64,000 nt of DNA from a virus. A model generated the notes under the pieces. That model saw nothing but the letters and a program-made list of their open reading frames with translations, ran no database searches and was not told where the DNA came from. Shown here piece after piece: positions 753 to 10,903 of this stretch. The first letter of the stretch is position 1, and every line of letters begins with the position of its first letter. The DNA lies in IMG/VR virus record IMGVR_UViG_3300025280_000022; one strand, 5' to 3'. The translations under genes and the position numbers were made by a program.

Positions 753-1111
753 GGAGCTTAATAACATTACTTTTTTTGAGCGTCTCACTTTTTGGGGAGT
801 TAAGAAATAGGCACGTTGCCGAGGAATGGAACAGTCGCGCAATAAATATTGAGCGGAGCGTATTTTCCCAACAAAATGCGTGGCACTACTTAAGTTGGTT
901 TGGGGTGTATTATCAAACCGAGGAGTGGTGGATTTATCATTGCGAAAAGGGTTGGCTTTATCCTGAAGGCGATAATAATCTGGGGGCTTGGTTTTACTGG
1001 GAAAAGACAAATACTTGGATTTGGATGCGTGCTGATGTATATCCTCTGGCCTGGAATAGTGGCACACAGGCATGGTTTAATTTTTGTGGTGACCCGCTAG
1101 CCCAGTCATAG
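749..1111 (+). CDS. secreted Trp-rich protein (Opitutales-type WFG...WIYH...GWLY...W.W...YP domain)
   Basis: GTG749 overlaps the upstream stop. Signal-peptide-like MRSLITLLFLSVSLFG is followed by the Trp-rich motif series. Confidence 0.65.
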   Translation: MRSLITLLFLSVSLFGELRNRHVAEEWNSRAINIERSVFSQQNAWHYLSWFGVYYQTEEWWIYHCEKGWLYPEGDNNLGAWFYWEKTNTWIWMRADVYPLAWNSGTQAWFNFCGDPLAQS

Positions 1112-1170
1112 AGCGGGCTGGCGGCTAGGCGCCCAGGCCGCCCCGCGGCAGGCCGCATAAACACTGGGCT
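1099..1170. repeat. paired 21-bp pseudo-palindromic sites (1099 fwd, 1150 rev)
   Basis: agcccagtcatagagcgggct and aggccgcataaacactgggct, 51 bp start-to-start. Confidence 0.9.
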
Positions 1171-1214
1171 CACGGGCGACACTTAAAAAAACTTTATTTT
1201 TTATGATTTAAGGG

Positions 1215-1242
1215 TTGACTTTACCTGTATACCTGTCATACT
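1215..1242 (+). promoter_or_regulatory. sigma70-type early promoter, probably leaderless transcript
   Basis: TTGACT-16-CATACT with extended TG. ATG at 1250. Confidence 0.75.
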
Positions 1243-1249
1243 TAAAGGC

Positions 1250-1393
1250 ATGAATAGTAAAGAAAGAATGAATGAATGGAAAAAGCTTCCTGCGAATACT
1301 ATTGCGTGGGAAACTTTTAAACGTCTTGTCGGTCAATTCGGCAGGGACGAAGGGATCAAGAAAGCGCAAAAGATTATTGCAAAAAAGTCTTGA
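1250..1393 (+). CDS. 47-aa hypothetical protein
   Basis: Hand-translated MNSKERMNEWKKLPANTIAWETFKRLVGQFG..., directly after the promoter. Confidence 0.65.
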   Translation: MNSKERMNEWKKLPANTIAWETFKRLVGQFGRDEGIKKAQKIIAKKS

Positions 1394-1417
1394 CAAAAAC
1401 CACTAATCTGTCAAACT
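1390..1417 (+). promoter_or_regulatory. sigma70-type promoter (leaderless)
   Basis: TTGACA-16-CAAACT with extended TG. ATG at 1424. Confidence 0.65.
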
Positions 1418-1423
1418 AGACCC

Positions 1424-1576
1424 ATGAGTAAAAGATATATAGAACAGAACAAAACCTCCAAGTATGCCACAAAGTATTCTCACACAGGCAAACTGCCGTT
1501 GGTTCAATCATTAACCGATCCAAATGTCATGGTGCGTCCGAAGGTTCGCACCGCCCAAGAAAAGAACAAGAAATGA
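1424..1576 (+). CDS. 50-aa basic hypothetical protein
   Basis: Hand-translated MSKRYIEQNKTSKYATKYSHTG.... ATGA overlap with the next gene. Confidence 0.65.
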   Translation: MSKRYIEQNKTSKYATKYSHTGKLPLVQSLTDPNVMVRPKVRTAQEKNKK

Positions 1577-1872
1577 AAGACAACGACATAGTAGTTTATA
1601 AACTCCTCGATGAGTTTAATCGCTCAAGGGAAGCAATCGTTCAATTTTTGCGTAACAAAGGATTCTCCTGCGAGCAAGCCCACGCAAAGATCATGCGCTA
1701 TCAAAGCGAAACCCAGATTGCCTATCGTGAATTTAAGAACACAGGCTTTACCGATGGCGGTGTCCAGTTTACGATGGAAGACGACCAAAAGGATTTTGGG
1801 AAAGATTATTTTAAACCCGAAGAAAAGATAAAAATTAACTTGGATGATATTGGGGAATTCCCACAATTGTAA
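1573..1872 (+). CDS. hypothetical protein
   Basis: 99-aa ORF coupled to the upstream gene by an ATGA overlap. Confidence 0.75.
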   Translation: MKDNDIVVYKLLDEFNRSREAIVQFLRNKGFSCEQAHAKIMRYQSETQIAYREFKNTGFTDGGVQFTMEDDQKDFGKDYFKPEEKIKINLDDIGEFPQL

Positions 1873-1874
1873 GC

Positions 1875-2123
1875 ATGAATAAACTAGAAAACGCTCTCGC
1901 TTGTCTCGGCATTGATCCCAGCACTTTTGAAGAATGGAAAGCTGATGTCGGGACTGACAAACTTGTTGCGGAAAATGGATTGCTCAAGACTACGGACGAA
2001 GATGTGCGTGATGAACTTGGGCAACTCGATACATCAGTCGAGGATGATCCGATAGACGAAGATGACGAAAACCAAGTAGACATGGATGTGCTGTCTCCAC
2101 ACATGAGAGAGGTATACCAGTAA
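1875..2123 (+). CDS. highly acidic protein, paralog of 10253..10501
   Basis: D/E-rich, with shared motif DPIDEDDExQxDMDxxS. Confidence 0.8.
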   Translation: MNKLENALACLGIDPSTFEEWKADVGTDKLVAENGLLKTTDEDVRDELGQLDTSVEDDPIDEDDENQVDMDVLSPHMREVYQ

Positions 2124-2203
2124 TGTGGGCGTTACCCTTAATCTGTGTAGTTATCTATGCTTACTTAATAGTATTGGTTATTGGATCAAATGCAAACGAT
2201 TGA
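2123..2203 (+). CDS. 26-aa membrane micropeptide
   Basis: TAATG overlap. MWALPLICVVIYAYLIVLVIGSNAND. Confidence 0.5.
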   Translation: MWALPLICVVIYAYLIVLVIGSNAND

Positions 2204-2354
2204 CACTGTAGAAACTAATCCCGAAATACGAGAGATGAATCTGACTTATAGGCAACTTGTTGATCATCTTCTCGACTTGCTCAATCACGGCACGAAGGAC
2301 GAAAAGAATGAGGCTTACGAAAAGCTGATGGCGATTTGTCCCAAGCGGGTTTAA
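2190..2354 (+). CDS. 54-aa hypothetical protein
   Basis: Hand-translated MQTIDTVETNPEIREMNLTYRQLVDHLLDLLNHG..., ending just before a hairpin. Confidence 0.55.
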   Translation: MQTIDTVETNPEIREMNLTYRQLVDHLLDLLNHGTKDEKNEAYEKLMAICPKRV

Positions 2355-2384
2355 ATATCAAATAAGGCTTTTGTCGTGGTTTGC

Positions 2385-2419
2385 GCCTCGTCGGGGTTGG
2401 TGGTTCTCCTCGGCGAGGC
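2385..2419 (+). terminator. hairpin with conserved TTGGTGGTTCT loop (copy 1, no clear U-tract)
   Basis: 12-bp stem gcctcgtcgggg/cctcggcgaggc. Confidence 0.65.
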
Positions 2420-2423
2420 CCTT

Positions 2424-2548
2424 ACCCCGCATGAACACTGGGCTGGAGAGGGGCGGCCTCCCCCGCCCGCCGCCAGCCCGCATGGATACTGGGCTGGTGG
2501 GTGATGCGCGCCCTTATGTATAGAGCCTTATTAACATCTTATGTATAG
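2424..2548 (-). repeat. paired 21-bp sites (2424 and 2475, both rev) followed by CTTATGTATAG boxes
   Basis: accccgcatgaacactgggct and agcccgcatggatactgggct, 51 bp apart. Confidence 0.9.
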
Positions 2549-2596
2549 TGTGCCCAGCACCTGGGCTTTTCCCCCGAAAAAAAGTTAAAAAAACTC

Positions 2597-2624
2597 TTGA
2601 CTTCACAAAAATTTCTGTCATACT
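2597..2624 (+). promoter_or_regulatory. sigma70-type early promoter
   Basis: TTGACT-16-CATACT, extended TG, A-rich UP region. Confidence 0.75.
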
Positions 2625-2662
2625 ATAACTATAATTAAGATTAACCATCAGCCCAAAAAAAC

Positions 2663-2881
2663 ATGACCATCGCCCAACTCGCCCACCAAGATTCCACCGA
2701 ACTCACCGTTGCCCTTTTGGGGTTTGACGCTTGGCTCGCCGACACCGCACCCACTTCCGAGGAGTGGGACAAAATCCTTCACGACATGCAGGCCGAGGAT
2801 GACGCCCACCGTGAAAATGTCTTGCTCAAAGACAATACCGAATTTTCGATGCCTACTGCCAAGGAACTTCGCAGCTGGTAA
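2663..2881 (+). CDS. acidic hypothetical protein
   Basis: 72-aa ORF after the promoter with an A-rich leader. Confidence 0.75.
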   Translation: MTIAQLAHQDSTELTVALLGFDAWLADTAPTSEEWDKILHDMQAEDDAHRENVLLKDNTEFSMPTAKELRSW

Positions 2882-2902
2882 AACCTCAACCCAAGAAAAA
2901 TC

Positions 2903-3175
2903 ATGCTCGACTTGAGTAACGTAGAAAAAATCACCGACCCAGAGGTCATCGCGCAGGACGCGTTCGACGCGGGTTGGGAGGGACGTCTCTCCTGTAACAT
3001 GCCCGCGCAGTATGCGGACGTGGGCAACAACTGGCGCATCTGGGCAGACGAATGGCAGTCTGGTCATCGTGACGCGCAGGACGATGTCGCCTACTATCGG
3101 GCGGACGCGCAGGGGCCAGACGCGACTGGCCAGAGTGACTGGGCGATGGATCAGTTCGTGGACGAGTCGCTTTAG
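2903..3175 (+). CDS. acidic Trp-rich hypothetical protein
   Basis: 90 aa, D/E-rich, AFDAGWEG...WQSG pattern. Confidence 0.75.
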   Translation: MLDLSNVEKITDPEVIAQDAFDAGWEGRLSCNMPAQYADVGNNWRIWADEWQSGHRDAQDDVAYYRADAQGPDATGQSDWAMDQFVDESL

Positions 3176-3245
3176 TTGGCTCTATTACTGGGCTGGCGGG
3201 CGGCGGGCCCTCCCGCCCCGCTCCAGGCCGCTCTATGACTGGGCT
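3174..3245 (-). repeat. paired 21-bp sites (3174 and 3225, rev)
   Basis: agttggctctattactgggct and aggccgctctatgactgggct, 51 bp apart. Confidence 0.88.
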
Positions 3246-3273
3246 GGCGGGCGAAAGTTTTTTAAAAAAACGC

Positions 3274-3301
3274 TTGACATCCTACCCCTATAGTATATTA
3301 T
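3274..3301 (+). promoter_or_regulatory. sigma70-type promoter upstream of the tRNA-like RNA
   Basis: TTGACA-16-TATTAT. Confidence 0.65.
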
Positions 3302-3332
3302 TGAAGGTAGTTAATTGAAAGACTTTTATTGT

Positions 3333-3478
3333 GGGGTCGTAGCTCAGATAGGTGAGAGCACCAGTCTACGCCAAGGGGGTTGATCTCCCCGAAACTCGCC
3401 AAGCATGAGGTACCGCTTGCAAGGTTGGGGGAAGCGATAATAGACTGGAGGTCGAGGGTTCGAGTCCCTCCGATCCCT
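3333..3478 (+). ncRNA. tRNA-like RNA with a 71-nt insertion in the anticodon loop (amino acid identity not assignable)
   Basis: Acceptor GGGGTCG/CGATCCC, D arm GCTC-AGATAGGTGA-GAGC, anticodon stem CCAGT/ACTGG, variable loop AGGTC, T arm GAGGG-TTCGAGT-CCCTC. Loop 3366-3443 is 78 nt. No encoded CCA. Confidence 0.85.
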
Positions 3479-3490
3479 GCTTTTTCTGTA

Positions 3491-3560
3491 GATCGAAAGA
3501 TTGAACAACGAGGCGTCAGCACACGCCTACAACCCTTCGGGGAGAGAGAAAAAGGTTCAC
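3491..3560 (+). ncRNA. candidate small structured RNA downstream of the tRNA-like gene
   Basis: GATC-GAAA-GATT hairpin, then TGAAC/GTTCA closing AGGCGT/ACGCCT and CCC-TTCG-GGG hairpins. Confidence 0.45.
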
Positions 3561-3567
3561 AATTTAG

Positions 3568-3596
3568 TTGACATCTCGCACTTTTTACTGTAAAAT
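3568..3596 (+). promoter_or_regulatory. sigma70-type promoter
   Basis: TTGACA-17-TAAAAT. Confidence 0.75.
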
Positions 3597-3619
3597 TATC
3601 TTAAATCAAAATTAAAACC

Positions 3620-3901
3620 ATGGAATACCATAGCATTAAAGTTATCGACCGTTGGAATCAAGATGAAGACGGCAACCATCTGGAAGTAAGAGTGGGAATG
3701 TCTGCACCATCTGCGCAGGACGCAGTTGACTATATCGCAGACGCTTTCAATGTTCGCCCCGAAGACAAGCGTTACCTAGTTTTGTCCCAAGAGGATGAAA
3801 AGCGTATGTACGCTGAATTTAGCGACTCAATCGAAAGCGCAACCTTTGGAGGGTATGAGTTAGCTGATGGGTTGGCTTTTGCTTACGACATAGACGACTA
3901 A
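3620..3901 (+). CDS. acidic hypothetical protein
   Basis: 93-aa ORF with AAAACCATG start context. Confidence 0.8.
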   Translation: MEYHSIKVIDRWNQDEDGNHLEVRVGMSAPSAQDAVDYIADAFNVRPEDKRYLVLSQEDEKRMYAEFSDSIESATFGGYELADGLAFAYDIDD

Positions 3902-3908
3902 TTGCTCT

Positions 3909-3980
3909 GATTGGCTCTATCATTGGGCTGGCGGGCGGCGCTCTCCTCCGCCCCGCTCCAGCCCGCTCTATGACTGGGCT
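3909..3980 (-). repeat. paired 21-bp sites (3909 and 3960, rev)
   Basis: gattggctctatcattgggct and agcccgctctatgactgggct, 51 bp apart. Confidence 0.88.
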
Positions 3981-4007
3981 GGAGGTCGATAAAAAACGAA
4001 AAAACTC

Positions 4008-4035
4008 TTGACTTTGTTTAATTTTCTGTCATACT
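4008..4035 (+). promoter_or_regulatory. sigma70-type promoter
   Basis: TTGACT-16-CATACT, extended TG. Confidence 0.75.
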
Positions 4036-4070
4036 TTATATAAAGATTAACATTATTAAGATAAAAAACC

Positions 4071-4337
4071 ATGAGTAACCACGACCAAGCATACATTGAA
4101 AAGTTTCAATCCGAAGACACCACCTACAATGGGTGGAAGAATCATGCCACCTGGAATGTCGCCCTTTGGATTGGTAGCGACCAAGGGCTGTATGAATTTG
4201 CCAAGGAGTGTGGCGACTACGACACCTTCAAAGATTCTTTGCGTGATGTCGGCCAACTGGAAACGCCCGACCGAGTTGCCTATAACGATTCGGCTCTCGA
4301 CCTCGAAAGCCTTAACGAATATATCAGCGAATTATAA
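4071..4337 (+). CDS. conserved phage early protein (YNGWxNxxTWNVALWI family)
   Basis: Motif recalled from widespread phage hypothetical proteins. Confidence 0.8.
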   Translation: MSNHDQAYIEKFQSEDTTYNGWKNHATWNVALWIGSDQGLYEFAKECGDYDTFKDSLRDVGQLETPDRVAYNDSALDLESLNEYISEL

Positions 4338-4338
4338 C

Positions 4339-4367
4339 TTGACAAAAACCTCAAATTAGTACATTAT
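4339..4367 (+). promoter_or_regulatory. sigma70-type promoter (leaderless)
   Basis: TTGACA-17-CATTAT. ATG at 4375. Confidence 0.65.
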
Positions 4368-4374
4368 TGTTACC

Positions 4375-4707
4375 ATGAAAACATTCGATGATTTAGCATT
4401 CGCAGTCCATCCCAACGTGGATGGTGGTTTAATGGCTCGCCTTGACCTTGGCGACTATCAAGTTTCCGTTGTGACCATGCGAGGCAAGAAGCCCCAGTAT
4501 GGTGGACTCTATGGTTCCCAAGCCGAAGGCACTTATGAAGTTGCCGTTTTTGCCAACACCGAAGGTGTCGATGGTAAGGATATGGTTCACCTGTCGGAGT
4601 GGGATGACGTTCTCGGCTGGCAATCGCCCGAACAGATTACCGCCATCATGGCGAAAATCCAAGAGGGTAATGGTGCAAGCCTAAATCAACCCCAAGCTGT
4701 TTGGTAA
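4375..4707 (+). CDS. conserved phage hypothetical protein (MKTFxDLxF...YEVAV...DDVxGW family)
   Basis: 110-aa ORF with motifs recalled from phage hypotheticals. Confidence 0.8.
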   Translation: MKTFDDLAFAVHPNVDGGLMARLDLGDYQVSVVTMRGKKPQYGGLYGSQAEGTYEVAVFANTEGVDGKDMVHLSEWDDVLGWQSPEQITAIMAKIQEGNGASLNQPQAVW

Positions 4708-4708
4708 A

Positions 4709-4807
4709 ATGATTGCTTCCTCAATTGCTGTTTTGATTGTTTCGCTTGCTTATCTCGGCATTGGTTTAATAGGCACAGGCATCTCCATCTTAATGCGCAA
4801 CAAATAA
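4709..4807 (+). CDS. 32-aa membrane micropeptide
   Basis: MIASSIAVLIVSLAYLGIGLIGTGISILMRNK, abutting the upstream stop. Confidence 0.55.
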   Translation: MIASSIAVLIVSLAYLGIGLIGTGISILMRNK

Positions 4808-4825
4808 ATTTTTGGTGACATGGTT

Positions 4826-4870
4826 AACCCGTCGAGGTTGGTGGTTCTCCTCGGCGGGTTTTTTGTTTTT
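4826..4870 (+). terminator. intrinsic terminator with TTGGTGGTTCT loop (copy 2)
   Basis: aacccgtcgagg/cctcggcgggtt stem followed by a T-tract. Confidence 0.8.
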
Positions 4871-4871
4871 G

Positions 4872-4928
4872 GGTCAAATATCGTATTGTTGGCCAAATAT
4901 CGTATCGTTGGTCAAATATCGCGTTGGT
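4872..4928 (+). repeat. three tandem 19-bp direct repeats (GGYCAAATATCG...)
   Basis: Units start at 4872, 4891 and 4910. Confidence 0.8.
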
Positions 4929-4956
4929 GGTTCAACTGCATCGGCTCAAGCTAATG

Positions 4957-5150
4957 CTTATGCATAGTGATCTATGTATAGTCTATGCATAACGTTTTAT
5001 GTATAGCGTTTTGAGTCATCGCCCGCTAGCCCAGTGATAGAGCGGGCTGCAGCGGGGCGGGGGGGCCCGCCGCCCGCCAGCCCAGTGTTCATGCGGGTTG
5101 CGGGGTGGTCATTAGAATTTCTCCGCCTCGTATTAGTTTTTCTCATACGT
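4957..5150 (+). repeat. junction module: 4x TATGYATA boxes, paired 21-bp sites (5028 and 5079, fwd), ATTAG boxes
   Basis: agcccagtgatagagcgggct and agcccagtgttcatgcgggtt, 51 bp apart. Confidence 0.9.
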
Positions 5151-5233
5151 GCATAATCGCACAATTTTTCCCTTGCGGTTTTGGGAAATGTCTATATTCT
5201 TATAGGTATAGAATCAAACTAGAAAAGAAAATT

Positions 5234-5428
5234 ATGACAAAAGAAACACTCGCCTTAATCATATCCGACAATTTTGAACAAGCAAAGCGTGGAGATGCCT
5301 TTGCGATTTCTGCCATTATCGGAGCGAATGATGAATTGGAGAAAATCAAGCAACTTGAAAAAGACATTGCTTTTGCCCAGATCGTGAAGGGTGAAATTGA
5401 GTGGGAAAAAAACCTAGAAAGTGCTTGA
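5234..5428 (+). CDS. 64-aa hypothetical protein
   Basis: Probable start MTKETLALII at 5234, downstream of TTGCGG-16-TATTCT (5173-5200). Confidence 0.7.
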   Translation: MTKETLALIISDNFEQAKRGDAFAISAIIGANDELEKIKQLEKDIAFAQIVKGEIEWEKNLESA

Positions 5429-5453
5429 CATTTTCGGCAATCTCATATAAAAT
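5425..5453 (+). promoter_or_regulatory. sigma70-type promoter
   Basis: TTGACA-17-TAAAAT. Confidence 0.75.
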
Positions 5454-5492
5454 TGTAGTATATTAAAATTAAGAACCACAAAAGAAAAAACC

Positions 5493-5684
5493 ATGCACCA
5501 CCTAAAAGTAGATATTGTCGATCCTGACACCAACACAATTCTCAAGTCCAACGTCAACATGACAACTGACGGCAAGCTCTCCGTTTGCGAGATGAATGAC
5601 CTCCTCTTTGCCCAAGGTGGCAATGTTTTTCGGGTTGTCGAAGTTGTTGAACGAGATCCATTTCTCCCTTGGAAATTGTTTTAA
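5493..5684 (+). CDS. hypothetical protein
   Basis: 63 aa with AAAAAACCATG context. Confidence 0.75.
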   Translation: MHHLKVDIVDPDTNTILKSNVNMTTDGKLSVCEMNDLLFAQGGNVFRVVEVVERDPFLPWKLF

Positions 5685-5688
5685 GGGC

Positions 5689-5717
5689 TTGACAATTTAA
5701 CCCTTTCCCCTCATACT
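5689..5717 (+). promoter_or_regulatory. sigma70-type promoter (leaderless)
   Basis: TTGACA-17-CATACT. ATG at 5724. Confidence 0.7.
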
Positions 5718-5723
5718 AGAACC

Positions 5724-5915
5724 ATGAAAAAACTCGAAGTTATAAAACCACTCCGCATGAACCAGTATCTTTTGAATGTGGGCGACCAATTTGAAGTTGC
5801 CAAGGTCATCGAAGATCCTCTCACTAAAGCAAAATTTTGGCGTCCTGCTAATGTCAAAGGCATGGAAGAAATGTATTGGCTTTTCTCCACAAAAATTTTC
5901 AAAGTTATAGAATAA
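5724..5915 (+). CDS. hypothetical protein
   Basis: 63-aa ORF. Confidence 0.75.
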   Translation: MKKLEVIKPLRMNQYLLNVGDQFEVAKVIEDPLTKAKFWRPANVKGMEEMYWLFSTKIFKVIE

Positions 5916-6088
5916 TGGTTATTGTAGAACAGCACCCAAACATCCAAAAATGGACAAATGTATTCCATGCAGGAAAATTAGTTTTCCAACTATCCTGCCG
6001 AGCTAAAGCCTTGCGTCTCGCCCAGCGTCTCGCCAAGGAAAAAAAGACCGCAGTTTTCGATGTCGATCAAAACGAAACAGTCAAATGA
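5915..6088 (+). CDS. 57-aa hypothetical protein
   Basis: TAATG overlap gives start MVIVEQHPNIQKW. Confidence 0.7.
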   Translation: MVIVEQHPNIQKWTNVFHAGKLVFQLSCRAKALRLAQRLAKEKKTAVFDVDQNETVK

Positions 6089-6326
6089 TTATTTTCGGCC
6101 TATCAATTATCGCCCTTTTAGTTTTTGCATATCTAACCCGATAAAAAAATGATTGAAGTAATTTTGTTTGTTGGTCTTTCCCTTGCTTACGCTAACCTTA
6201 CAACCTAAAAAACACATGAAGCACATTGCCGATTTATTTGCCAAACCGCTTTTGCTGTTGTCCCTGACTGCGTTCCTTTACGTCCTGCATATTGTAGTGA
6301 TGGATTGGATTCGTCTCATCGGTTAA
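6085..6326 (+). CDS. three consecutive hydrophobic micropeptides (6085-6144, 6149-6208, 6216-6326)
   Basis: MIIFGLSIIALLVFAYLTR, MIEVILFVGLSLAYANLTT and MKHIADLFAKPLLLLSLTAFLYVLHIVVMDWIRLIG, tightly packed. Confidence 0.5.
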
Positions 6327-6336
6327 ACAGTCGCCG

Positions 6337-6470
6337 CTATACATAAGCCGCTATACATAAGGCCTTATACATAAGGGCGGCGGGGGGCCGCGGCCCGCCA
6401 GCCCAGTGTTCATGCGGGTTGCGGGGCGGTCATTAGAATTTCTCTGCTCGGTATAAGTTTTGCTCATAAG
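6337..6470 (+). repeat. junction module: 3x TATACATAAG, single 21-bp site (6400), ATTAG boxes
   Basis: agcccagtgttcatgcgggtt at 6400-6420. Confidence 0.88.
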
Positions 6471-6501
6471 ATAAAAAAGTGAAAAAACTTTCACAAAAGG
6501 G

Positions 6502-6529
6502 TTGACTTTATCAAAAATTCTGTCATACT
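6502..6529 (+). promoter_or_regulatory. sigma70-type promoter
   Basis: TTGACT-16-CATACT, extended TG. Confidence 0.75.
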
Positions 6530-6571
6530 ATTATTATATTAAGATTAAAAACCACAAAAAGAAAAACCACC

Positions 6572-6787
6572 ATGATTAAAAAAAATGATATTGTTCGCTC
6601 TCCTCAAGGTCTCGTTGGCGTTGTCCTTGACCTAGTCAAAGACCCTGACGGCATCCAGTTTGCGATTTTCCGTTGCGTTGGTTCGCAACGAAAGGTTGCT
6701 TGCCCAGTTGCCAGCTTAAGCCCGCACAAGTGGCTCAATGTTGTCAGCATCCATCAGGACAACAAGAACCTTCTCGCCAAAAGTTAA
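6572..6787 (+). CDS. small beta-rich (SH3/KOW-like?) protein
   Basis: MIKKNDIV..., resembling the next gene. Confidence 0.7.
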   Translation: MIKKNDIVRSPQGLVGVVLDLVKDPDGIQFAIFRCVGSQRKVACPVASLSPHKWLNVVSIHQDNKNLLAKS

Positions 6788-6790
6788 GCC

Positions 6791-6976
6791 ATGATTAAAA
6801 CTAACGATAAAGTCCTCACTAAAAAAAATTCACTTTGCAAGGTGACTTCCATTCGTGGTCGCTTCGCATTGCTCAAGGGCATTGGCTCGGATCAGTCCCC
6901 GCCTGTACGAGTCCTTGCTTGCATCAGCGACCTGCGGACTCTTAAGGGTTTTCACGGCACTCATATTATTATCTAA
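6791..6976 (+). CDS. small beta-rich protein, likely paralog of 6572..6787
   Basis: MIKTNDKV...LACISDL versus MIKKNDIV...VACPVASL. Confidence 0.7.
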   Translation: MIKTNDKVLTKKNSLCKVTSIRGRFALLKGIGSDQSPPVRVLACISDLRTLKGFHGTHIII

Positions 6977-6987
6977 ACAAAAAAATC

Positions 6988-7185
6988 ATGACACGTAAAC
7001 ACTTCGAGCTTATTGCTCAAACACTCAACAAGGCTCACAAGCACGACCACAACAAAAACGTGGTGCAAGGTATTGCCTTTGACCTATCAACCAAGTTTAA
7101 GGATATCAATCCCAACTTTTCACAAACCAAATTCATGCAGGCAGTCATGGCCGATTCAGGACTGTTCTTCACCAACGGAAAATGA
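6988..7185 (+). CDS. conserved phage hypothetical protein (MTRKHFxxIA family)
   Basis: N-terminal motif and NPNF...KF recalled from phage hypotheticals. Confidence 0.8.
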   Translation: MTRKHFELIAQTLNKAHKHDHNKNVVQGIAFDLSTKFKDINPNFSQTKFMQAVMADSGLFFTNGK

Positions 7186-7394
7186 CTGATCTAAAACAAT
7201 TACCTTATTGCCTAAACTTTCTCGCTAGGAACAGCGGGGACGTTTATTATCGAGCGAGTCACCAAAATTTTAAAACTATCGGTGACGCTTTGCGTTTTAT
7301 CTGCGACTTGAAAAAGTCGGACAAGCAAACCCGTGACCGCTATCTTTACAAGCGTACAGGTCGCAGGGGATTTGACTTTATTAACCAATATTAA
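7182..7394 (+). CDS. hypothetical protein
   Basis: 70 aa, ATGA overlap. Confidence 0.7.
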   Translation: MTDLKQLPYCLNFLARNSGDVYYRASHQNFKTIGDALRFICDLKKSDKQTRDRYLYKRTGRRGFDFINQY

Positions 7395-7413
7395 AAACTT
7401 TTGACAGCATGGC

Positions 7414-7452
7414 GTGCGGCGGGGTTGGTGGTTCTCCCCGTCGCACTTTTTC
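7414..7452 (+). terminator. intrinsic terminator with TTGGTGGTTCT loop (copy 3)
   Basis: gtgcggcgggg/ccccgtcgcac stem followed by a T-tract. Confidence 0.8.
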
Positions 7453-7453
7453 G

Positions 7454-7745
7454 TTATACATAAGCCACTATACATAAGGCCTTATACATAAGGGCGGCGG
7501 GGGGCCGCGGCCCGCCAGCCCAGTGTTTATGCGGGTTGCGGGGCGGTCGTTAGGTAAGTTGCAACTTACTAAAACGCATTGTTTGAATTAAATCCGAATT
7601 AAATCGGATTTAATTTTTTCCTCCGAATTTCCTGCAAAAAAAGGAGCTTTAACGGATTTTTTTTGCATTTATTTTCGTGTTTGGCTCTATTAGTGGCCTC
7701 GTGGCGTGTTTTTTTTATCGTATTTTCCCAAAATTAGTTTATAAT
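7454..7745 (+). repeat. junction module: TATACATAAG x3, 21-bp site (7517), palindrome GTAAGTTGCAACTTAC (7554-7569), AATTAAATC repeats, degenerate reverse site (7679), promoter TCGTAT-16-TATAAT
   Basis: Near-identical to the blocks at 8.53-8.88 and 9.65-10.0 kb. Confidence 0.88.
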
Positions 7746-7779
7746 GGTAACATACAAAATTGAGAAAGACCAAACTTTA

Positions 7780-7860
7780 AGCGTAACGGCAAAACCCTAC
7801 CATCGGCCACTAATTAGAGAGTCGCCACAAAAGGGAAATTGAAAAAACAAAACTACGCTA
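7780..7860 (+). ncRNA. candidate structured 5' leader RNA (copy 1)
   Basis: Homologous to 8925-9003 with a compensatory outer stem, GCGTA/TACGC versus ACGCA/TGCGT. Confidence 0.5.
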
Positions 7861-7892
7861 ACTTTAAAAAAACCACTAAATCCAAAAAAATC

Positions 7893-8123
7893 ATGTTCAA
7901 AGCTACTCATTTAGTCCTCACTCCTCACGCAGGAAATTCCGCCTTTGGGGTGGGATTCTCCCCTTCTCCCAAGAAGGCAATCGCCTTGGCGAAAGTCAAC
8001 GCCGACATCAACCTTGATAGGTTCGATGCCGAGCATGGCATTTGCTCCTCCATTGGCGGGGAAGTCACCAACCTTTTCAACGCCTCCAATGGTGTCCACA
8101 TCCACCAAAACCTCGACCTTTAG
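7893..8123 (+). CDS. 76-aa hypothetical protein
   Basis: Probable start MFKATHLVLT after an A-rich leader. Confidence 0.7.
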   Translation: MFKATHLVLTPHAGNSAFGVGFSPSPKKAIALAKVNADINLDRFDAEHGICSSIGGEVTNLFNASNGVHIHQNLDL

Positions 8124-8127
8124 TCCT

Positions 8128-8307
8128 ATGACCAGAGAAGAAAACAAAACTTACCTGCAAACCAGAATTGCCAACCTGAAGGCTGAAGTCGCTGGGCTTG
8201 TTGCAAGAGACGCAAGAGACGGAGAGATCCGAGCTTGCAAGTCGGAGCTTGCCCGCCATGAACAGGCTCTTGTGTGGCTCCACAACAGGATTGCCACAAG
8301 CCTCTAA
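8128..8307 (+). CDS. 59-aa coiled-coil hypothetical protein
   Basis: MTREENKTYLQTRIANLKAEV..., 4 nt after the upstream stop. Confidence 0.7.
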   Translation: MTREENKTYLQTRIANLKAEVAGLVARDARDGEIRACKSELARHEQALVWLHNRIATSL

Positions 8308-8333
8308 TTTAACCACAAACAAAAACCACTACA

Positions 8334-8525
8334 ATGCAATTCATTATAGCAACCACCAAGTCGGGCGTTTATCGCCTGCAAGTCTTCAATCGTGGGTTCC
8401 AGATTGGAACACACAACTCCGTCAGTCGGAAGTATGTTAAGCGTGTCATTCGCAAGTACACCGCTCGCATGGTGTCCTCATCCCATGCGGCACATGGCAA
8501 GCCTGTAAATGTCATTTGGGCATAG
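8334..8525 (+). CDS. basic hypothetical protein
   Basis: 63 aa with an AACCAC-rich leader. Confidence 0.7.
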   Translation: MQFIIATTKSGVYRLQVFNRGFQIGTHNSVSRKYVKRVIRKYTARMVSSSHAAHGKPVNVIWA

Positions 8526-8526
8526 C

Positions 8527-8877
8527 CTTATGTATAACGCTTATGCATAGCTTATGCATAGCGTCTTATGTATAGCGTTTAAGCTCATCGGCCGCTAGCC
8601 CAGTCATAGAGCGGGCTGTAGCGTGGCGGCGGACGCCGCGGCCCGCCAGCCCAGTGTTTATGCGGGTTGCGGGGCGGTCGTTAGGTAAGTTGCAACTTAC
8701 TAAAAACGCATTGCTCGAATTAAATCCGAATTAAATCCGATTTAATTTTTCCCCCCGAATTTTCCGCAATTTAAGGAGCTTTAAACGATTTTTTTTGCAT
8801 TTATTTTCGCATTTGGCTCTATTAGTGGCCTCGTGGCCCGATTTTGTTCTCGTATTTTTCGAAAAATGGTTTATAAT
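8527..8877 (+). repeat. junction module: TATGYATA x4, paired sites (8597, 8648), palindrome 8685-8700, degenerate reverse site 8811, promoter TCGTAT-16-TATAAT
   Basis: 51-bp spacing, read directly. Confidence 0.9.
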
Positions 8878-8924
8878 GGTAACATAGAAAATTAGAAAAG
8901 ACCTCACCAAAAAGACTTTACGAC

Positions 8925-9003
8925 ACGCAACGGCAAAACCCTAAACTCGGCCACTAATTTGAGAGTCGCCACAAAAGGGACATTGAAAAAACAACACTGC
9001 GTT
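8925..9003 (+). ncRNA. candidate structured 5' leader RNA (copy 2)
   Basis: See copy 1 at 7780-7860. Confidence 0.5.
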
Positions 9004-9034
9004 TCACTTTAAAAAATCCTGTAAATCAAAAAAA

Positions 9035-9157
9035 ATGTTCATCCGAAATCCAAACGTCATTTAACGCCCTCCTGATGGTGAGATGGGCGCGCCAAGATTA
9101 TGACAAAGAAAATTCCCATTTAACGCTCGTATGACGGGGAGATGAGCGCCCCAAGAT
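9035..9157 (+). ncRNA. two tandem minigene+pseudoknot units (59-nt period)
   Basis: MFIRNPNVI* (9035-9064) and MTKKIPI* (9100-9123), each followed by CGCYC...GGKG-AGAT-GRGCG-CSCC-AAGAT with covarying stems. Confidence 0.6.
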
Positions 9158-9182
9158 AAAAAATTTAAAACCACAAAAACCC

Positions 9183-9338
9183 ATGCAAACAATTTCTGAT
9201 TTAAAAAACCTTATAAGCTCCGCCAAATGTGGAACCGACTTGACTATTGCCCGAACAATGGTTCAATGGTCGGACGTTCCGCCTCCCATTAAGGCGCTTT
9301 TATTCCAGCAGATTGTAGACAAAAGAAAAACCCTTTAA
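9183..9338 (+). CDS. 51-aa protein, paralog of 11306..11512
   Basis: MQTISDLKNLISSA...IARTMV..SDVP..IK..LF.Q..DK. Confidence 0.75.
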   Translation: MQTISDLKNLISSAKCGTDLTIARTMVQWSDVPPPIKALLFQQIVDKRKTL

Positions 9339-9345
9339 GACCATT

Positions 9346-9492
9346 ATGACAAAAAACGAAAAAATCGCTCGCCTTGAAACTCACCTTGCTTGGTGGACTG
9401 CCAAGCTTAACCGCTCACGCAAGAACTCCTTGATTGCCATGCGTGCGTTGCATGTCAACGCAATCCGCAAGGAACTTGAAGCCCTCAAGTAG
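9346..9492 (+). CDS. 48-aa basic helical protein, paralog of 10514..10660
   Basis: LAWWTAKLNRSRK...NAIRKELEALK. Confidence 0.8.
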   Translation: MTKNEKIARLETHLAWWTAKLNRSRKNSLIAMRALHVNAIRKELEALK

Positions 9493-9498
9493 ACTTTT

Positions 9499-9651
9499 AT
9501 GTACGTCCTACAATCAACAACTAAAGCCAAAGATTGGCAAGCTGAAACCCTGCCGATGCCTTTGGCTGTCGCGGACAAACTGGTGCGCCAGCGTATCGCT
9601 CAGGCTTCAGGCTGTCGCCGTTATCGCCTTGTCAAGGTGCGCGTAGCGTAG
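9499..9651 (+). CDS. 50-aa hypothetical protein
   Basis: Hand-translated MYVLQSTTKAKDWQAETLPMP.... The stop abuts the repeat module. Confidence 0.65.
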   Translation: MYVLQSTTKAKDWQAETLPMPLAVADKLVRQRIAQASGCRRYRLVKVRVA

Positions 9652-9652
9652 C

Positions 9653-10007
9653 CTTATGTATAACGCTTATGCATAGCTTATGCATAGCGTCTTATGCATA
9701 GCGTTTAAGCTCATCGGCCGCTAGCCCAGTCATAGAGCGGGCTGCAGCGGGGCGCGGGAGCCCGCCGCCCGCCAGCCCAGTGTTCATGCGGGTTGCGGGG
9801 CGGTCGTTAGGTAAGTTGCAACTTACATGGGCGATTCATTTATTCCGAATTAAATCCGATTTAATTGCCTATTTAATTTTTCCCCCGAATTTTCCGCAAT
9901 TTAGGGAGCTTTAAGCGATTTTTTTTACGATTATTTTCACGTTTGGCTCTATGACTGGGCTGGCGGGTGAAGATTGTTATTGTATTTTTCACAAATTCGT
10001 TTATAAT
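9653..10007 (+). repeat. junction module: TATGYATA x4, paired sites (9723, 9774), palindrome 9811-9826, reverse site 9941, promoter TTGTAT-16-TATAAT
   Basis: 51-bp spacing, read directly. Confidence 0.9.
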
Positions 10008-10052
10008 GGTACCATACAAAATTAAGAAAGTTAACCACCAAAGATAAAAACC

Positions 10053-10226
10053 ATGTTTAAAGTTATAGAAGTTCGTTTTGATATCCTAACAGGAAACGAG
10101 TCCGAGCATATCCTGCTCAAGACCAACCACAAGCTCCTAGCCGATGAGGCTTGCAAGGATGCAAATGCCTCATTTGAGGGTGACGTTCCTGGGTTCGAGT
10201 CTTTCGCTGTTGTCGTCAAAGTTTAA
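10053..10226 (+). CDS. 57-aa hypothetical protein
   Basis: Hand-translated MFKVIEVRFDILTGNESEHILLKT..., AAAAACCATG context. Confidence 0.7.
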   Translation: MFKVIEVRFDILTGNESEHILLKTNHKLLADEACKDANASFEGDVPGFESFAVVVKV

Positions 10227-10252
10227 ACACAAACAAAAAAGAAAAAACCACC

Positions 10253-10501
10253 ATGAGCAAATCCATCTCACAACTCCCTCTCGCCCTTCAATCCCTCTTT
10301 GCCGAGCTACACGCCGAGCAAGCCGTCGAGCAAGTCTTGGATGCCGTAGACGGCACACAAACCAAAGCAACGTCCGAGGACATCATGGACGAATTTGTCC
10401 GCATCGAAACCGAAGTCGATGCCGATCCCATCGACGAAGACGACGAAGAACAGATCGACATGGACTGCGTGTCCGTCGAGATGCTGGAGATGTTCAGCTA
10501 A
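10253..10501 (+). CDS. highly acidic protein, paralog of 1875..2123
   Basis: DPIDEDDEEQIDMD motif. Confidence 0.8.
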   Translation: MSKSISQLPLALQSLFAELHAEQAVEQVLDAVDGTQTKATSEDIMDEFVRIETEVDADPIDEDDEEQIDMDCVSVEMLEMFS

Positions 10502-10513
10502 ACTTTAACTATT

Positions 10514-10660
10514 ATGTCAAAACAAAAAGAAATCGAAAAGCTCGAAAGAGATCTCGCTTGGTGGACTGCCAAGCTCAACAAGTCACGCAAGGAATCCTTG
10601 CGTTCCATCCGTGCGTTACACGCTAACGCTATCCGCAAGGAGCTTGAAGCTCTCAAGTAG
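10514..10660 (+). CDS. 48-aa basic helical protein, paralog of 9346..9492
   Basis: LAWWTAKLNKSRK...NAIRKELEALK. Confidence 0.8.
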   Translation: MSKQKEIEKLERDLAWWTAKLNKSRKESLRSIRALHANAIRKELEALK

Positions 10661-10661
10661 C

Positions 10662-10903
10662 CTTATGTATAGCGTTATACATAGCTTATGTATAGTGTCT
10701 TATGTATAGCGTTCACAGCCATCGGCCGCTAGCCCAGTCGTAGAGCGGGCTAGAGCCTGACGGCGGGGCCCGCGGCCCGCCAGCCCAGTGTTTATGCGGG
10801 TTGCGGGGTGGTCATTAGAATCTCACTCGCTCGCATTAGTTTTGCTTATACGTATACAACTGCATGATATTTTTCTTGTGATTGCTGAAAATTCTGTCAT
10901 ACT
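10662..10903 (+). repeat. junction module: TATRYATA x4, paired sites (10731, 10782), ATTAG boxes, promoter TTGTGA-16-CATACT
   Basis: 51-bp spacing, read directly. Confidence 0.9.

What the first reader, a model, noticed from the sequence alone, without database searches (positions are those of the whole stretch)
1099..10802. Gene-cassette array delimited by paired 21-bp sites at an invariant 51-bp spacing, in either orientation
Seen: the pseudo-palindrome AGCCCAG-N7-GCGGGYT (arms extend to about 11 bp) occurs as 8 pairs starting at 1099/1150, 2424/2475, 3174/3225, 3909/3960, 5028/5079, 8597/8648, 9723/9774 and 10731/10782. Every pair is exactly 51 bp apart, although the 30-bp GC-rich linker differs and orientation varies (fwd/rev, rev/rev x3, fwd/fwd x4). 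Singles lie at 6400, 7517 and 9941, with degenerate copies at 7679 and 8811. Cores fall mainly into two classes, T(C/G/A)RTAGA and TGTTYAT. Each block sits between the last stop of one mini-operon and the promoter of the next, and I saw none after 10.9 kb. Known: tyrosine-recombinase core sites have inverted arms around a 6-8 bp asymmetric spacer, and T4-type phages shuffle early genes via repeated promoter cassettes. Inference: this is either a site-specific cassette-shuffling system for early/anti-defence genes, or tandem operators about 5 helical turns apart that are bound on one DNA face by a phage or host protein. No recombinase is visible in this window.
Basis: partly seen in the sequence, partly recalled or inferred. 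Interest (0 to 1): 0.9.

Follow-up and report, generated by a model that had tools for sequence, protein, structure and literature searches.

The report
Repeated hairpin-promoter boundary cassettes in phage
The paired 21-bp sites are real, but they look like repeated hairpin-plus-promoter boundary cassettes between small early phage genes rather than a dedicated cassette-recombination system; unexpectedly, the same 21-bp motif also occurs beside protein-binding repeats in plasmids, integrative elements and phages of many bacterial phyla, and that is unexplained.

Summary
OBSERVATION: confirmed. There are 16 matches in the window against 0.57 expected by chance. Eight pairs lie exactly 51 bp apart, and a ninth pair lies upstream of the window.

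WHAT IT IS: each pair is part of a 94-274 nt intergenic repeat. Its order is stop codon, sometimes a terminator, TATGYATAGCG repeats, site A, a 30-nt GC hairpin, site B, an AT-rich tract, then a TTGACT/CATACT promoter. The unit has a polarity and occurs in both orientations.

RELATIVES: related phages keep the gene order and carry a hairpin plus promoter at the same junctions, mostly without the 21-mers. Where they do have pairs, the spacing is 34, 51 or 66-69 bp, so the spacing is not invariant. Cassette gain and replacement map to the blocks. No recombinase was found in the 93-kb record. The best reading is cassettes like the PeSL (promoter-early stem-loop) elements of T4-type phages, in a large long-tailed phage that is not T4-like.

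SURPRISE: the exact B 21-mer occurs in 30 other viral contigs and 91 bacterial contigs across phyla. It usually caps a hairpin next to element-specific repeats. Contexts include integration-site ends, plasmid replication origins, and the regions upstream of primase-helicase genes. No Rfam family or paper matches it, and its molecular partner is unknown.

The scan also noted this same stretch once more from another window; nothing like it was noted on other DNA.

The parts
1099..1170 (.). Block 1: site A forward (1099-1119), 30-nt GC linker, site B reversed (1150-1170). The TAG stop of ORF 731-1111 lies inside site A. The promoter -35 is at 1215.
   Evidence: folds as a long imperfect hairpin, -52.5 kcal/mol, z -2.9
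2424..2495 (-). Block 2: the composite unit inverted. Site B (2424-2444) and a variant site with core TATCCAT (2475-2495). It is preceded by a terminator-like hairpin at 2386-2420 and followed by two TATGTATAG repeats and the promoter at 2597.
3174..3245 (-). Block 3: the composite unit inverted. A degenerate site (3174-3194) and site A (3225-3245). It ends 28 nt before the -35 at 3274, which drives the tRNA-like gene.
   Evidence: repeat family D5
3909..3980 (-). Block 4: the composite unit inverted. A degenerate site (3909-3929) and site A (3960-3980). It ends 27 nt before the -35 at 4008. It is 83% identical to block 3, and together the two flank the tRNA cassette.
4951..5131 (+). Block 5: four TATGYATAG repeats, site A (5028-5048), the GC hairpin and site B (5079-5099). 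The terminator at 4828-4872 lies upstream.
   Evidence: repeat family D1
6335..6436 (+). Single-site block: three TATACATAAG repeats, half of a GC hairpin and site B (6400-6420). The promoter is at 6502.
   Evidence: extended hairpin, -28.1 kcal/mol; repeat family D3
7452..7699 (.). Single-site block: repeats, site B forward (7517-7537), palindrome-rich spacer, then a degenerate reversed site (7679-7699) about 15 nt before a TATAAT-type promoter. The terminator at 7408-7450 lies upstream.
   Evidence: repeat families D2, D3
8520..8831 (.). Block 6: four repeats, site A (8597-8617), the GC hairpin, site B (8648-8668), a 160-nt spacer and a degenerate reversed site (8811-8831).
   Evidence: repeat families D1, D2
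9646..9961 (.). Block 7: four repeats, site A (9723-9743), the GC hairpin, site B (9774-9794), a spacer and a reversed site (9941-9961) 26 nt before the promoter at 9988.
10654..10834 (+). Block 8: four repeats, site A (10731-10751), the GC hairpin and site B (10782-10802). This is the last copy in the record.
3274..3901 (+). Cassette (promoter, tRNA-like gene, 93-aa ORF) that lies between blocks 3 and 4 here. In relative G006 a single block joins the two flanking genes instead.

Best explanation
WHAT THE ARRAY IS: it is a set of repeated composite regulatory boundary cassettes in the early region of a large long-tailed phage. Each intergenic block joins GC-rich stem-loops to an AT-rich tract and a strong sigma70-type promoter. 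The stem-loops are the two 21-nt sites plus the 30-nt linker hairpin. Each small gene group therefore carries its own stop and start signals.

INFERRED FUNCTION: the stem-loops probably act as transcription attenuators or insulators, and possibly as RNA 3'-end or processing structures.

INFERRED EVOLUTIONARY ROLE: the blocks are 94-274 nt long and 60-96% identical. They are likely substrates for homologous recombination, which would insert, delete and replace cassettes and keep the blocks alike within one genome. This is how the PeSL (promoter-early stem-loop) cassettes of T4-type phages are thought to work.

THE 51-bp SPACING: it is the length of one copied unit, fixed by the intervening hairpin. 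It is not a conserved helical phase.

WHERE THE 21-MER COMES FROM: the phage did not invent it. It belongs to a cross-phylum motif of mobile elements that sits beside element-specific repeats. Its molecular partner is unknown.
For: SHOWN, block anatomy: the order stop codon, repeats, A, hairpin, B, AT-rich tract, TTGACT-N16-CATACT promoter is read directly from the sequence and from the promoter scan.

SHOWN, long repeats: the blocks are long repeats.

SHOWN, one unit in two orientations: when all units are oriented alike they align without gaps, and the consensus fold is three hairpins. Single units fold better than shuffled sequence in 6 of 8 cases.

SHOWN, relatives: five related contigs keep the order of eight genes. 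Their junctions carry a different GC hairpin (TTGGCACGG..CCGTGCCAA) plus the same AT tract and promoter, with only 1-2 full 21-mers per 30-40 kb.

SHOWN, cassette changes at blocks: the tRNA cassette lies between near-identical blocks 3 and 4 here, where G006 has one block. One gene (record 9415-9633) sits at a different block in relatives. Paralogous genes recur after repeated blocks.

FROM THE LITERATURE: PeSLs are a stem-loop plus an AT-rich tract plus a sigma70 promoter of about 100 bp. Their stem-loop terminates transcription in a reporter assay. Insertions and deletions between relatives are bounded by PeSLs, and recombination between them makes mini-circles (PMC2839356, PMC4122927).

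CONSISTENT, motif context elsewhere: elsewhere the motif favours junctions between convergent genes (31) over divergent ones (8). It has T-runs downstream in 42% of cases against 20% upstream.
Against: NO U-TRACT: the A and B hairpins here lack a U-tract, and the terminator scan does not call them. Separate canonical terminators exist at 2386-2420, 4828-4872 and 7408-7450.

TERMINATION UNTESTED: termination by these hairpins has not been tested.

CONSERVATION UNEXPLAINED: a plain terminator does not explain why 21 nt are kept letter for letter across phyla. It also does not explain why parts of the motif are kept where no hairpin can form. In relatives AGCCCAGTGATAGAGCC is kept without the 3' arm, and in plasmids CCAGTGTTTATGCGGGTT is kept without the 5' arm.

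LINKER LENGTH: linkers diverge to about 61% identity yet have no insertions or deletions. That hints at a length or structure constraint beyond simple copying.

RECOMBINATION TYPE: homologous and site-specific recombination cannot be told apart from the comparisons made here.
Confidence: 0.5

Rival explanations
1. The 21-bp sites are operators for a sequence-specific DNA-binding protein. This could be a phage early or middle regulator, or a conserved host factor. Bound pairs would regulate the adjacent early promoters, or build a nucleoprotein complex together with whatever protein binds the neighbouring TATGYATAG repeats.
For: - The site has pseudo-dyad 7-7-7 symmetry.
- Reversed sites end 14-44 nt upstream of -35 elements.
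- Parts of the motif are conserved where hairpin potential is lost.
- In 75% of 146 unrelated instances, repeated 9-mers lie within 110 nt, against 27% of controls (p = 2e-27).
- The motif occupies the place of a bending-protein site in several contexts. It lies between core and arm-type repeats at integration sites, inside a TrfA-type plasmid origin, and upstream of a plasmid rep promoter.
- The outer stems show no strand bias.
Against: - No protein family is shared between this phage and the unrelated motif-bearing loci.
- The distance to -35 is not fixed.
- Pair spacing varies in relatives.
- Stems covary while the loop stays constant in Clostridia, for example AAGCC..GGCTT. That favours a folded single strand.
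- No known cross-phylum factor has this site; this rests on my own knowledge and was not tested.
Confidence: 0.2
2. The composite unit is a small non-autonomous mobile element, like a MITE (miniature inverted-repeat element) or REPIN (paired REP sequences). It would have multiplied in this phage lineage and been moved by an enzyme supplied in trans.
For: - The unit has a polarity and occurs in both orientations.
- There are about 20 copies here against 1-2 in relatives that share gene order.
- Paired palindromic sites at a fixed distance recall REPINs; this comparison rests on my own knowledge.
- The motif is scattered in 15% of sampled Clostridia genomes at 1-3 copies each.
Against: - No empty site versus filled site with a target duplication was seen. 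Relatives have another hairpin at the same place, so this looks like replacement rather than insertion.
- No HUH, IS110 or TnpB gene is in the record.
- Outside this phage family only the 21-mer is shared, not an element with conserved ends.
- No other unrelated phage contig searched has more than one copy.
Confidence: 0.1
3. The sites are core sites of a site-specific recombinase. It would excise, insert or invert early-gene cassettes, as in an integron.
For: - The site has 7-bp imperfect inverted arms around a 7-bp asymmetric spacer.
- Cassette content varies at the blocks.
- In other elements the motif lies at integration-site ends next to tyrosine integrases.
Against: - No integrase or resolvase is in the 93 kb.
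- At integration sites the identity segment is the 3' end of guaA, lysS or a tRNA gene, not the 21-mer. The 21-mer is present at one end only.
- Relatives lack the sites at most shared junctions.
- Sites occur in mixed orientations, yet all genes face one way.
- No integron R/L boxes (GTTRRRY) are present.
Confidence: 0.07
4. The motif is a replication element, such as a priming or initiation signal used by a conserved host enzyme. The phage array would be a cluster of such signals.
For: - The motif lies in plasmid replication regions. One is a TrfA-type origin with iterons and a DnaA box. Another is next to the rep promoter of a Rep_1 rolling-circle plasmid. It also lies amid repeats in 2.9-kb plasmids.
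- It lies directly upstream of DUF5906/DUF3987 helicase-primase genes in eight or more phage and chromosomal loci.
- The invariant CAGT is the complement of ACTG, the start context of the primer at the phage G4 origin.
Against: - About 20 origins within 15 kb of early genes is implausible.
- The motif is absent from the known single-strand origins of pUB110 and pTA1060.
- The G4 likeness is only 4 nt.
- Many copies lie at gene ends with no replication gene nearby.
Confidence: 0.05

Closest known systems
PeSL (promoter-early stem-loop) cassettes of T4-type phages (Arbiol et al. 2010, PMC2839356; Comeau et al. 2014, PMC4122927)
   Same: - A GC-rich stem-loop, an AT-rich tract and a strong sigma70 promoter lie between small orphan genes.
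- The unit is about 100 bp or more and repeated many times in one region.
- Gene insertions, deletions and replacements between relatives are bounded by the repeats.
   Different: - The host phage is not T4-like. It has a 2841-aa tape measure protein.
- The stem-loop part is tripartite, with two 21-nt sites around a hairpin, and is often preceded by 3-4 short repeats.
- The unit occurs in both orientations.
- The 21-mer is shared with unrelated mobile elements.
- Terminator activity and mini-circles were not tested here.
Integron attC sites and gene cassettes
   Same: Imperfect inverted repeats with paired inner and outer boxes delimit small cassettes. The site is able to fold as a single strand.
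   Different: - No IntI-type integrase, attI site or common promoter is present.
- No RYYYAAC/GTTRRRY boxes are present.
- Cassettes here carry their own promoters.
- Sites occur in both orientations.
REP/REPIN elements with RAYT transposases
   Same: Short GC-rich palindromes in intergenic regions, often downstream of genes, paired at a fixed distance and found in either orientation.
   Different: - No RAYT or HUH gene was found.
- REPs are species-specific and present in hundreds of copies. This motif is cross-phylum and has a low copy number except in this phage.
- Pairs here are mostly direct, not inverted.
Accessory bending-protein sites (IHF type) in attP, iteron origins and transposon ends
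   Same: A conserved short site placed between element-specific repeated binding sites, as in lambda H' between the core and the P' arm sites. This comparison rests on my own knowledge.
   Different: The sequence has no likeness to the IHF consensus. The motif occurs in phyla without IHF. No binding protein is known.
RNase III processing hairpins between phage T7 early genes
   Same: Conserved hairpins punctuate an early polycistronic region; this comparison rests on my own knowledge.
   Different: Here each cassette has its own promoter. The hairpins occur in both orientations. No cleavage data exist.

Membership tests
PeSL-type regulatory cassettes | Sigma70-like early promoter with an AT-rich upstream tract, adjacent to a GC-rich stem-loop, in intergenic regions of small orphan genes | tested here: met
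   Sequence and promoter scan. Folds.
PeSL-type regulatory cassettes | Repeated with sequence conservation over about 100 bp within one genome region | tested here: met
   Repeat families of 94-274 nt at 60-96% identity.
PeSL-type regulatory cassettes | Insertions, deletions and replacements between related phages bounded by the cassettes | tested here: met
   The tRNA cassette lies between blocks 3 and 4 here, against a single block in G006. Gene 9415-9633 is relocated in relatives.
PeSL-type regulatory cassettes | Stem-loop terminates transcription; recombination between cassettes gives mini-circles | not testable with these tools
The hairpins lack U-tracts.
PeSL-type regulatory cassettes | Host phage is a T4-type myovirus | tested here: not met
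   The phage has a tape measure protein of 2841 aa, so it is long-tailed. Only the N-terminal domain of the large terminase is T4-type.
Integron / attC | IntI-family tyrosine recombinase next to the array | tested here: not met
   PF00589 gives no match in the 93-kb record, which is about 51% complete.
Integron / attC | R''/L''-L'/R' boxes with RYYYAAC and GTTRRRY | tested here: not met
   The boxes are not present in the site sequences.
Site-specific recombination core site | Cognate recombinase present, and the same site at both ends of the mobile segment | tested here: not met
   No integrase or resolvase was found. In integrated elements the exact 21-mer occurs once per contig.
REP/REPIN-RAYT | Associated HUH (Y1) transposase and a high-copy, species-specific palindrome | tested here: inconclusive
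   A Y1-transposase profile was not run. The neighbour-protein comparison showed no shared family. Copy number elsewhere is 1-3 per genome.
Intrinsic terminator | GC-rich hairpin followed directly by a U-tract | tested here: inconclusive
   Not met for the phage's A and B hairpins. Among unrelated instances, 42% have a T-run of 4 or more within 25 nt downstream, against 20% upstream. Of 151 instances, 101 form an extended hairpin.
Described RNA families (Rfam 15) | Covariance-model match | tested here: not met
   Only the tRNA at 3333-3478 matches. Nothing matches at the blocks even at E up to 10.
tRNA-like element | Cloverleaf recognised by tRNA models | tested here: not met
   Site A resembles the tRNA D-arm (TAGCYCAGT.GGTAGAGC). 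However, ARAGORN at lowered thresholds and the Rfam tRNA model do not call the blocks.

The most novel reading that the evidence does not exclude
The 21-nt motif (consensus AGCCC-AGT-NN-T-NNN-GC-GGGTT) is an undescribed cis-element shared by mobile elements across phyla. A conserved host machine would read it, as a folded strand or as a duplex, wherever an element assembles a repeat-bound complex. Such places include integration sites, plasmid origins and helicase-primase origins. This phage would have multiplied the motif about 20-fold in its first-expressed region, either to recruit that factor or to soak it up.
Probability: 0.25. Interest if true: 0.85.

Novelty: new variant of a known kind. 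Interest (0 to 1): 0.6.

Why it matters
FOR THIS PHAGE: it would extend PeSL-type modular shuffling, described only for T4-type phages, to an unrelated large long-tailed phage. It gives a concrete mechanism for turnover of early genes, many of which are likely host-takeover or anti-defence genes.

MORE BROADLY: a 21-nt sequence kept letter for letter in phages, plasmids and integrative elements calls for an explanation. Their hosts include Clostridia, Bacteroidota, Proteobacteria, Nitrospirota and others, and the motif almost always lies beside element-specific repeats. If a common host factor reads it, that would reveal a shared dependency of many mobile elements. It would also give a simple sequence marker for their replication or recombination regions.

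Tried and rejected
- Rfam at gathering and at E up to 10: no family at the blocks.
- Full-text search for six variants of the sequence: no paper.
- Search for papers on guaA integration-site hairpins: nothing relevant.
- Megablast of the region against GenBank phages: no match.
- Short-query BLAST against phages, E. coli genomes and plasmids. It gave no E. coli match and a few unannotated phage matches. It also found the plasmid origin contexts used above.
- Integration-site core idea: rejected. The identity segment is the target gene's 3' end, and the 21-mer is at one end only.
- Shared binding protein: blastp of the phage proteome against ORFs near the motif found only the phage's own relatives.
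- RNA-specific strand bias in the outer stems: none found.
- Known single-strand origins of pUB110 and pTA1060: motif absent.
- G4 primase origin: only ACTG is shared.
- tRNA-likeness: not called by ARAGORN or Rfam.
- Loop A to loop B pairing, checked by hand: 6 bp are possible with TGTTTAT cores, but this breaks with TGTTCAT and shows no covariation.
- Fixed distance from site to -35: it varies from 14 to 101 nt.
- RK2 oriV record: not in the collection.

Full report
OBSERVATION. The pattern AGCCCAG-N7-GCGGGYT with up to 2 mismatches occurs 16 times in the window, against 0.57 expected from dinucleotide-preserving shuffles. Two first members, at 3174 and 3909, are degenerate. The window is positions 6753-70752 of a 93,387-bp IMG/VR record estimated to be 51% complete. 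In that record the array continues upstream. Another pair 51 bp apart lies at 3669/3720, and a decayed pair lies at 2275. No copy with 3 or fewer mismatches lies after window position 10802. There are two main site types. Type A is AGCCCAGT(C/G)(A/G)TAGAGCGGGCT. Type B is AGCCCAGTGTTYATGCGGGTT.

ANATOMY. The sites are parts of long intergenic repeats: 181 nt in 4 copies, 201 nt in 3, 102 nt in 5, 94 nt in 4 and 274 nt in 2, at 60-96% identity. The full order of a block is as follows:
- the stop codon of the last gene of a small operon;
- in three blocks, a canonical terminator whose loop is GGTTGGTGGTTCTCC;
- 3-4 copies of TATGYATAGCG;
- CATCGGCCGCT, site A, a 30-nt GC hairpin, site B, then GCGGGGYGGTC;
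- a spacer;
- in the long blocks, a reversed degenerate site;
- an AT-rich tract;
- a TTGACT-N16-(TG)TCATACT promoter.

When pairs 2-4 are reverse-complemented they align without gaps to pairs 5-8 and to two relatives. The array is therefore one polar unit used in both orientations, and the consensus fold is three hairpins. Six of eight units fold better than shuffled sequence, with z between -2.1 and -2.9. Two inverted units do not.

THE PHAGE. Its large terminase has a T4-type N-terminal domain. It also encodes PhoH and a GP88-like protein and a 2841-aa tape measure protein. It is therefore a large long-tailed phage, not a T4-type myovirus. No integrase, resolvase, IS110-type or TnpB-type gene is in the 93 kb.

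RELATIVES. Exact type-A sites occur only in related viral contigs of about 40% G+C. Five of these contigs (G006-G010) hold only 1-2 full sites per 30-40 kb. They keep the order of eight genes of the left half of the array. At the same junctions they carry a different GC hairpin, TTGGCACGG..CCGTGCCAA, followed by the same AT-rich tract and TTGACT/CATACT promoter. The constant feature of the lineage is therefore a stem-loop plus a promoter, and the 21-mers are one version of the stem-loop part. Where pairs exist, the start-to-start spacing varies:
- 34 bp in L045;
- 51 bp in this phage and its closest relatives L144 and L147;
- 66-69 bp in L260, L262, L263 and L264;
- four single B sites in L126.

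CASSETTE CHANGES. The promoter, tRNA-like gene and 93-aa ORF cassette (3274-3901) lies between blocks 3 and 4, which are 83% identical to each other. G006 joins the two flanking genes with a single block. The gene at record 9415-9633 follows block 2 here but sits several cassettes away in relatives, and G006 has an unrelated small ORF in its place. Paralogous genes follow repeated blocks. This is the pattern described for PeSLs (promoter-early stem-loops) in T4-type phages. There, a terminator stem-loop, an AT tract and a sigma70 promoter of about 100 bp flank orphan genes and recombine with each other, even giving mini-circles (PMC2839356, PMC4122927). I therefore read the array as PeSL-like boundary cassettes. 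Termination by these particular hairpins is inferred, not shown, because they lack U-tracts. The type of recombination is also inferred.

AN UNEXPECTED RESULT. The exact B 21-mer occurs in 30 viral contigs and in 91 stretches of the one-genome-per-species collection. My own rough estimate of the chance expectation is below one in both cases. G+C of these sequences ranges from 30% to 69%, and the flanks are unrelated. The hosts named in the record titles are mostly Clostridia. They also include Prevotella, Flavobacterium, Polaromonas, Hydrogenophaga, Janthinobacterium, a Caulobacterales genome, a Nitrospiraceae genome, Megasphaera, Syntrophomonas and two Actinobacteria genomes.

A looser search shows a family with the consensus AGCCC-AGT-NN-T-NNN-GC-GGG(T/C/A)T. 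Its cores are AT-rich in low-GC contigs (TGTTTAT, TATTYAT) and GC-rich in high-GC contigs (TGCTGGC, TGGTGAC, TACTGGC). Within Clostridia the loop AGTRTTYATGC stays constant while the stem changes in a compensating way: AAGCC..GGCTT or GGTTT, AACCC, ACCCC, AACTT. Other measurements:
- Of 151 non-redundant instances, 101 form an extended hairpin with the motif at the tip.
- Flank pairing exceeds a control made by mixing flanks between instances.
- The outer stems show no strand bias.
- In an even sample of 300 genomes of the class, 15% hold the 15-nt core, at 1-3 copies each, with about 7 control hits in all. This fits an accessory, element-borne distribution.

CONTEXTS OF THE MOTIF ELSEWHERE.
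(a) Integration-site ends. The order is: 3' end of guaA (29 loci), of lysS, or a truncated tRNA 3' end; then 10-25 nt; the hairpin; element-specific repeats; an HTH gene; and a tyrosine integrase with an arm-binding domain. Two loci show only the last 12 nt or so of guaA before the hairpin, so the hairpin belongs to the element. The exact 21-mer occurs once per contig, so it is not the crossover core.
(b) Directly upstream of DUF5906 or DUF3987 helicase-primase genes, with repeats on both sides.
(c) Plasmid replication regions. One lies inside a TrfA-type origin, between trfA and its iterons and a DnaA box. Another lies 34 nt upstream of the -35 of a Rep_1 rep promoter, flanked by CCGTTTTATC repeats. 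Others lie amid GAGACA repeats in 2.9-kb enterobacterial plasmids.
(d) Downstream of PDDEXK_2 'transposase' genes, inside a unit of about 140 bp with flanking CTTAAAAGATGCC repeats.
(e) Ordinary chromosomal intergenic regions.

Overall, 75% of 146 instances have repeated 9-mers within 110 nt, against 27% of random control positions (p = 2e-27). Junctions between convergent genes (31) outnumber divergent ones (8). T-runs follow the motif in 42% of cases, against 20% preceding it. In the plasmids, and in the half sites of the phage's relatives, part of the motif is conserved where the complementary arm is missing. A hairpin is therefore usual but not obligatory.

WHAT THE MOTIF IS REMAINS OPEN. 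No Rfam family matches it. No paper holds the sequence. No protein family is shared between the phage and the unrelated loci. It is absent from the single-strand origins of pUB110 and pTA1060. It shares only ACTG with the G4 primer start. Site A resembles the tRNA D-arm, but tRNA models do not call the blocks. Its usual place, between element-specific repeats or at module borders, fits two readings: an insulating hairpin, or an architectural or host-factor site. I cannot decide between them.

VERDICT. A dedicated recombination system and conserved helical phasing are not supported. The best explanation is PeSL-like boundary cassettes that recombine by homology, at confidence 0.5. The rivals are a protein operator (0.2), a small mobile element (0.1), site-specific recombination (0.07) and a replication signal (0.05). 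The cross-phylum 21-mer is the part that deserves follow-up.

Noticed in passing
window 3333-3478 (+): A tRNA gene matches the Rfam tRNA model at 52 bits. It has its own promoter (3274) and lies between blocks 3 and 4.
   Followed up: partly
window 2386-2420, 4828-4872, 7408-7450 (+): Three canonical terminator hairpins share the same loop, GGTTGGTGGTTCTCC. A related one occurs in relative G006 (L260 about 9590-9640). This is a second repeated hairpin family in the same region.
   Followed up: no
window 4958-5012, 6335-6385, 7452-7500, 8528-8580, 9654-9706, 10662-10712: There are 3-4 tandem copies of TATGYATAGCG or TATACATAAG, with a palindromic core TATGCATA, about 14 bp apart, just upstream of the forward units. 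Relatives have TGCATACAA repeats at the same place. They look like binding sites of a dimeric protein.
   Followed up: no
window 7590-7620, 8720-8750, 9845-9875: The perfect palindrome ATTAAATC-C-GATTTAAT is repeated in the 160-nt spacer between the forward B site and the reversed site of the long blocks.
   Followed up: no
   Followed up: yes
window 9346-9492 and 10514-10660: Two paralogous 48-aa ORFs, both containing ..LAWWTAKLN.SRK.S....RALH.NAIRKELEALK, each end a cassette just before a block. The DNA repeat is 164 nt at 77% identity.
   Followed up: partly
window 36273-44798 (+): A 2841-aa tape measure protein implies an unusually long tail.
   Followed up: no
L246 (Pseudomonas phage vB_PF_Y1-MI, OR500437.1) 1940-2260: A near-copy of the motif (AGCCCAGTGTTTATAAGGGGTT) lies 45 nt from a canonical parS-like palindrome (TGTTCCACGTGAAACA). 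A second such palindrome lies 300 nt on. All are in a large non-coding region.
   Followed up: no
L242 (G003 contig 2) 1777 and 8166: Two direct copies of a motif unit of about 140 bp, with CTTAAAAGATGCC flanking repeats, bracket 6.4 kb. That stretch holds a PDDEXK_2 'transposase', an AAA kinase-like gene and a DUF5694 gene. It may be a small mobile unit.
   Followed up: partly
L200, L206, L212: In three Lachnospiraceae loci the motif hairpin lies 20-30 nt after a CIRCE-like element (TTAGCACTG-N9-GAGTGCTAA).
   Followed up: no
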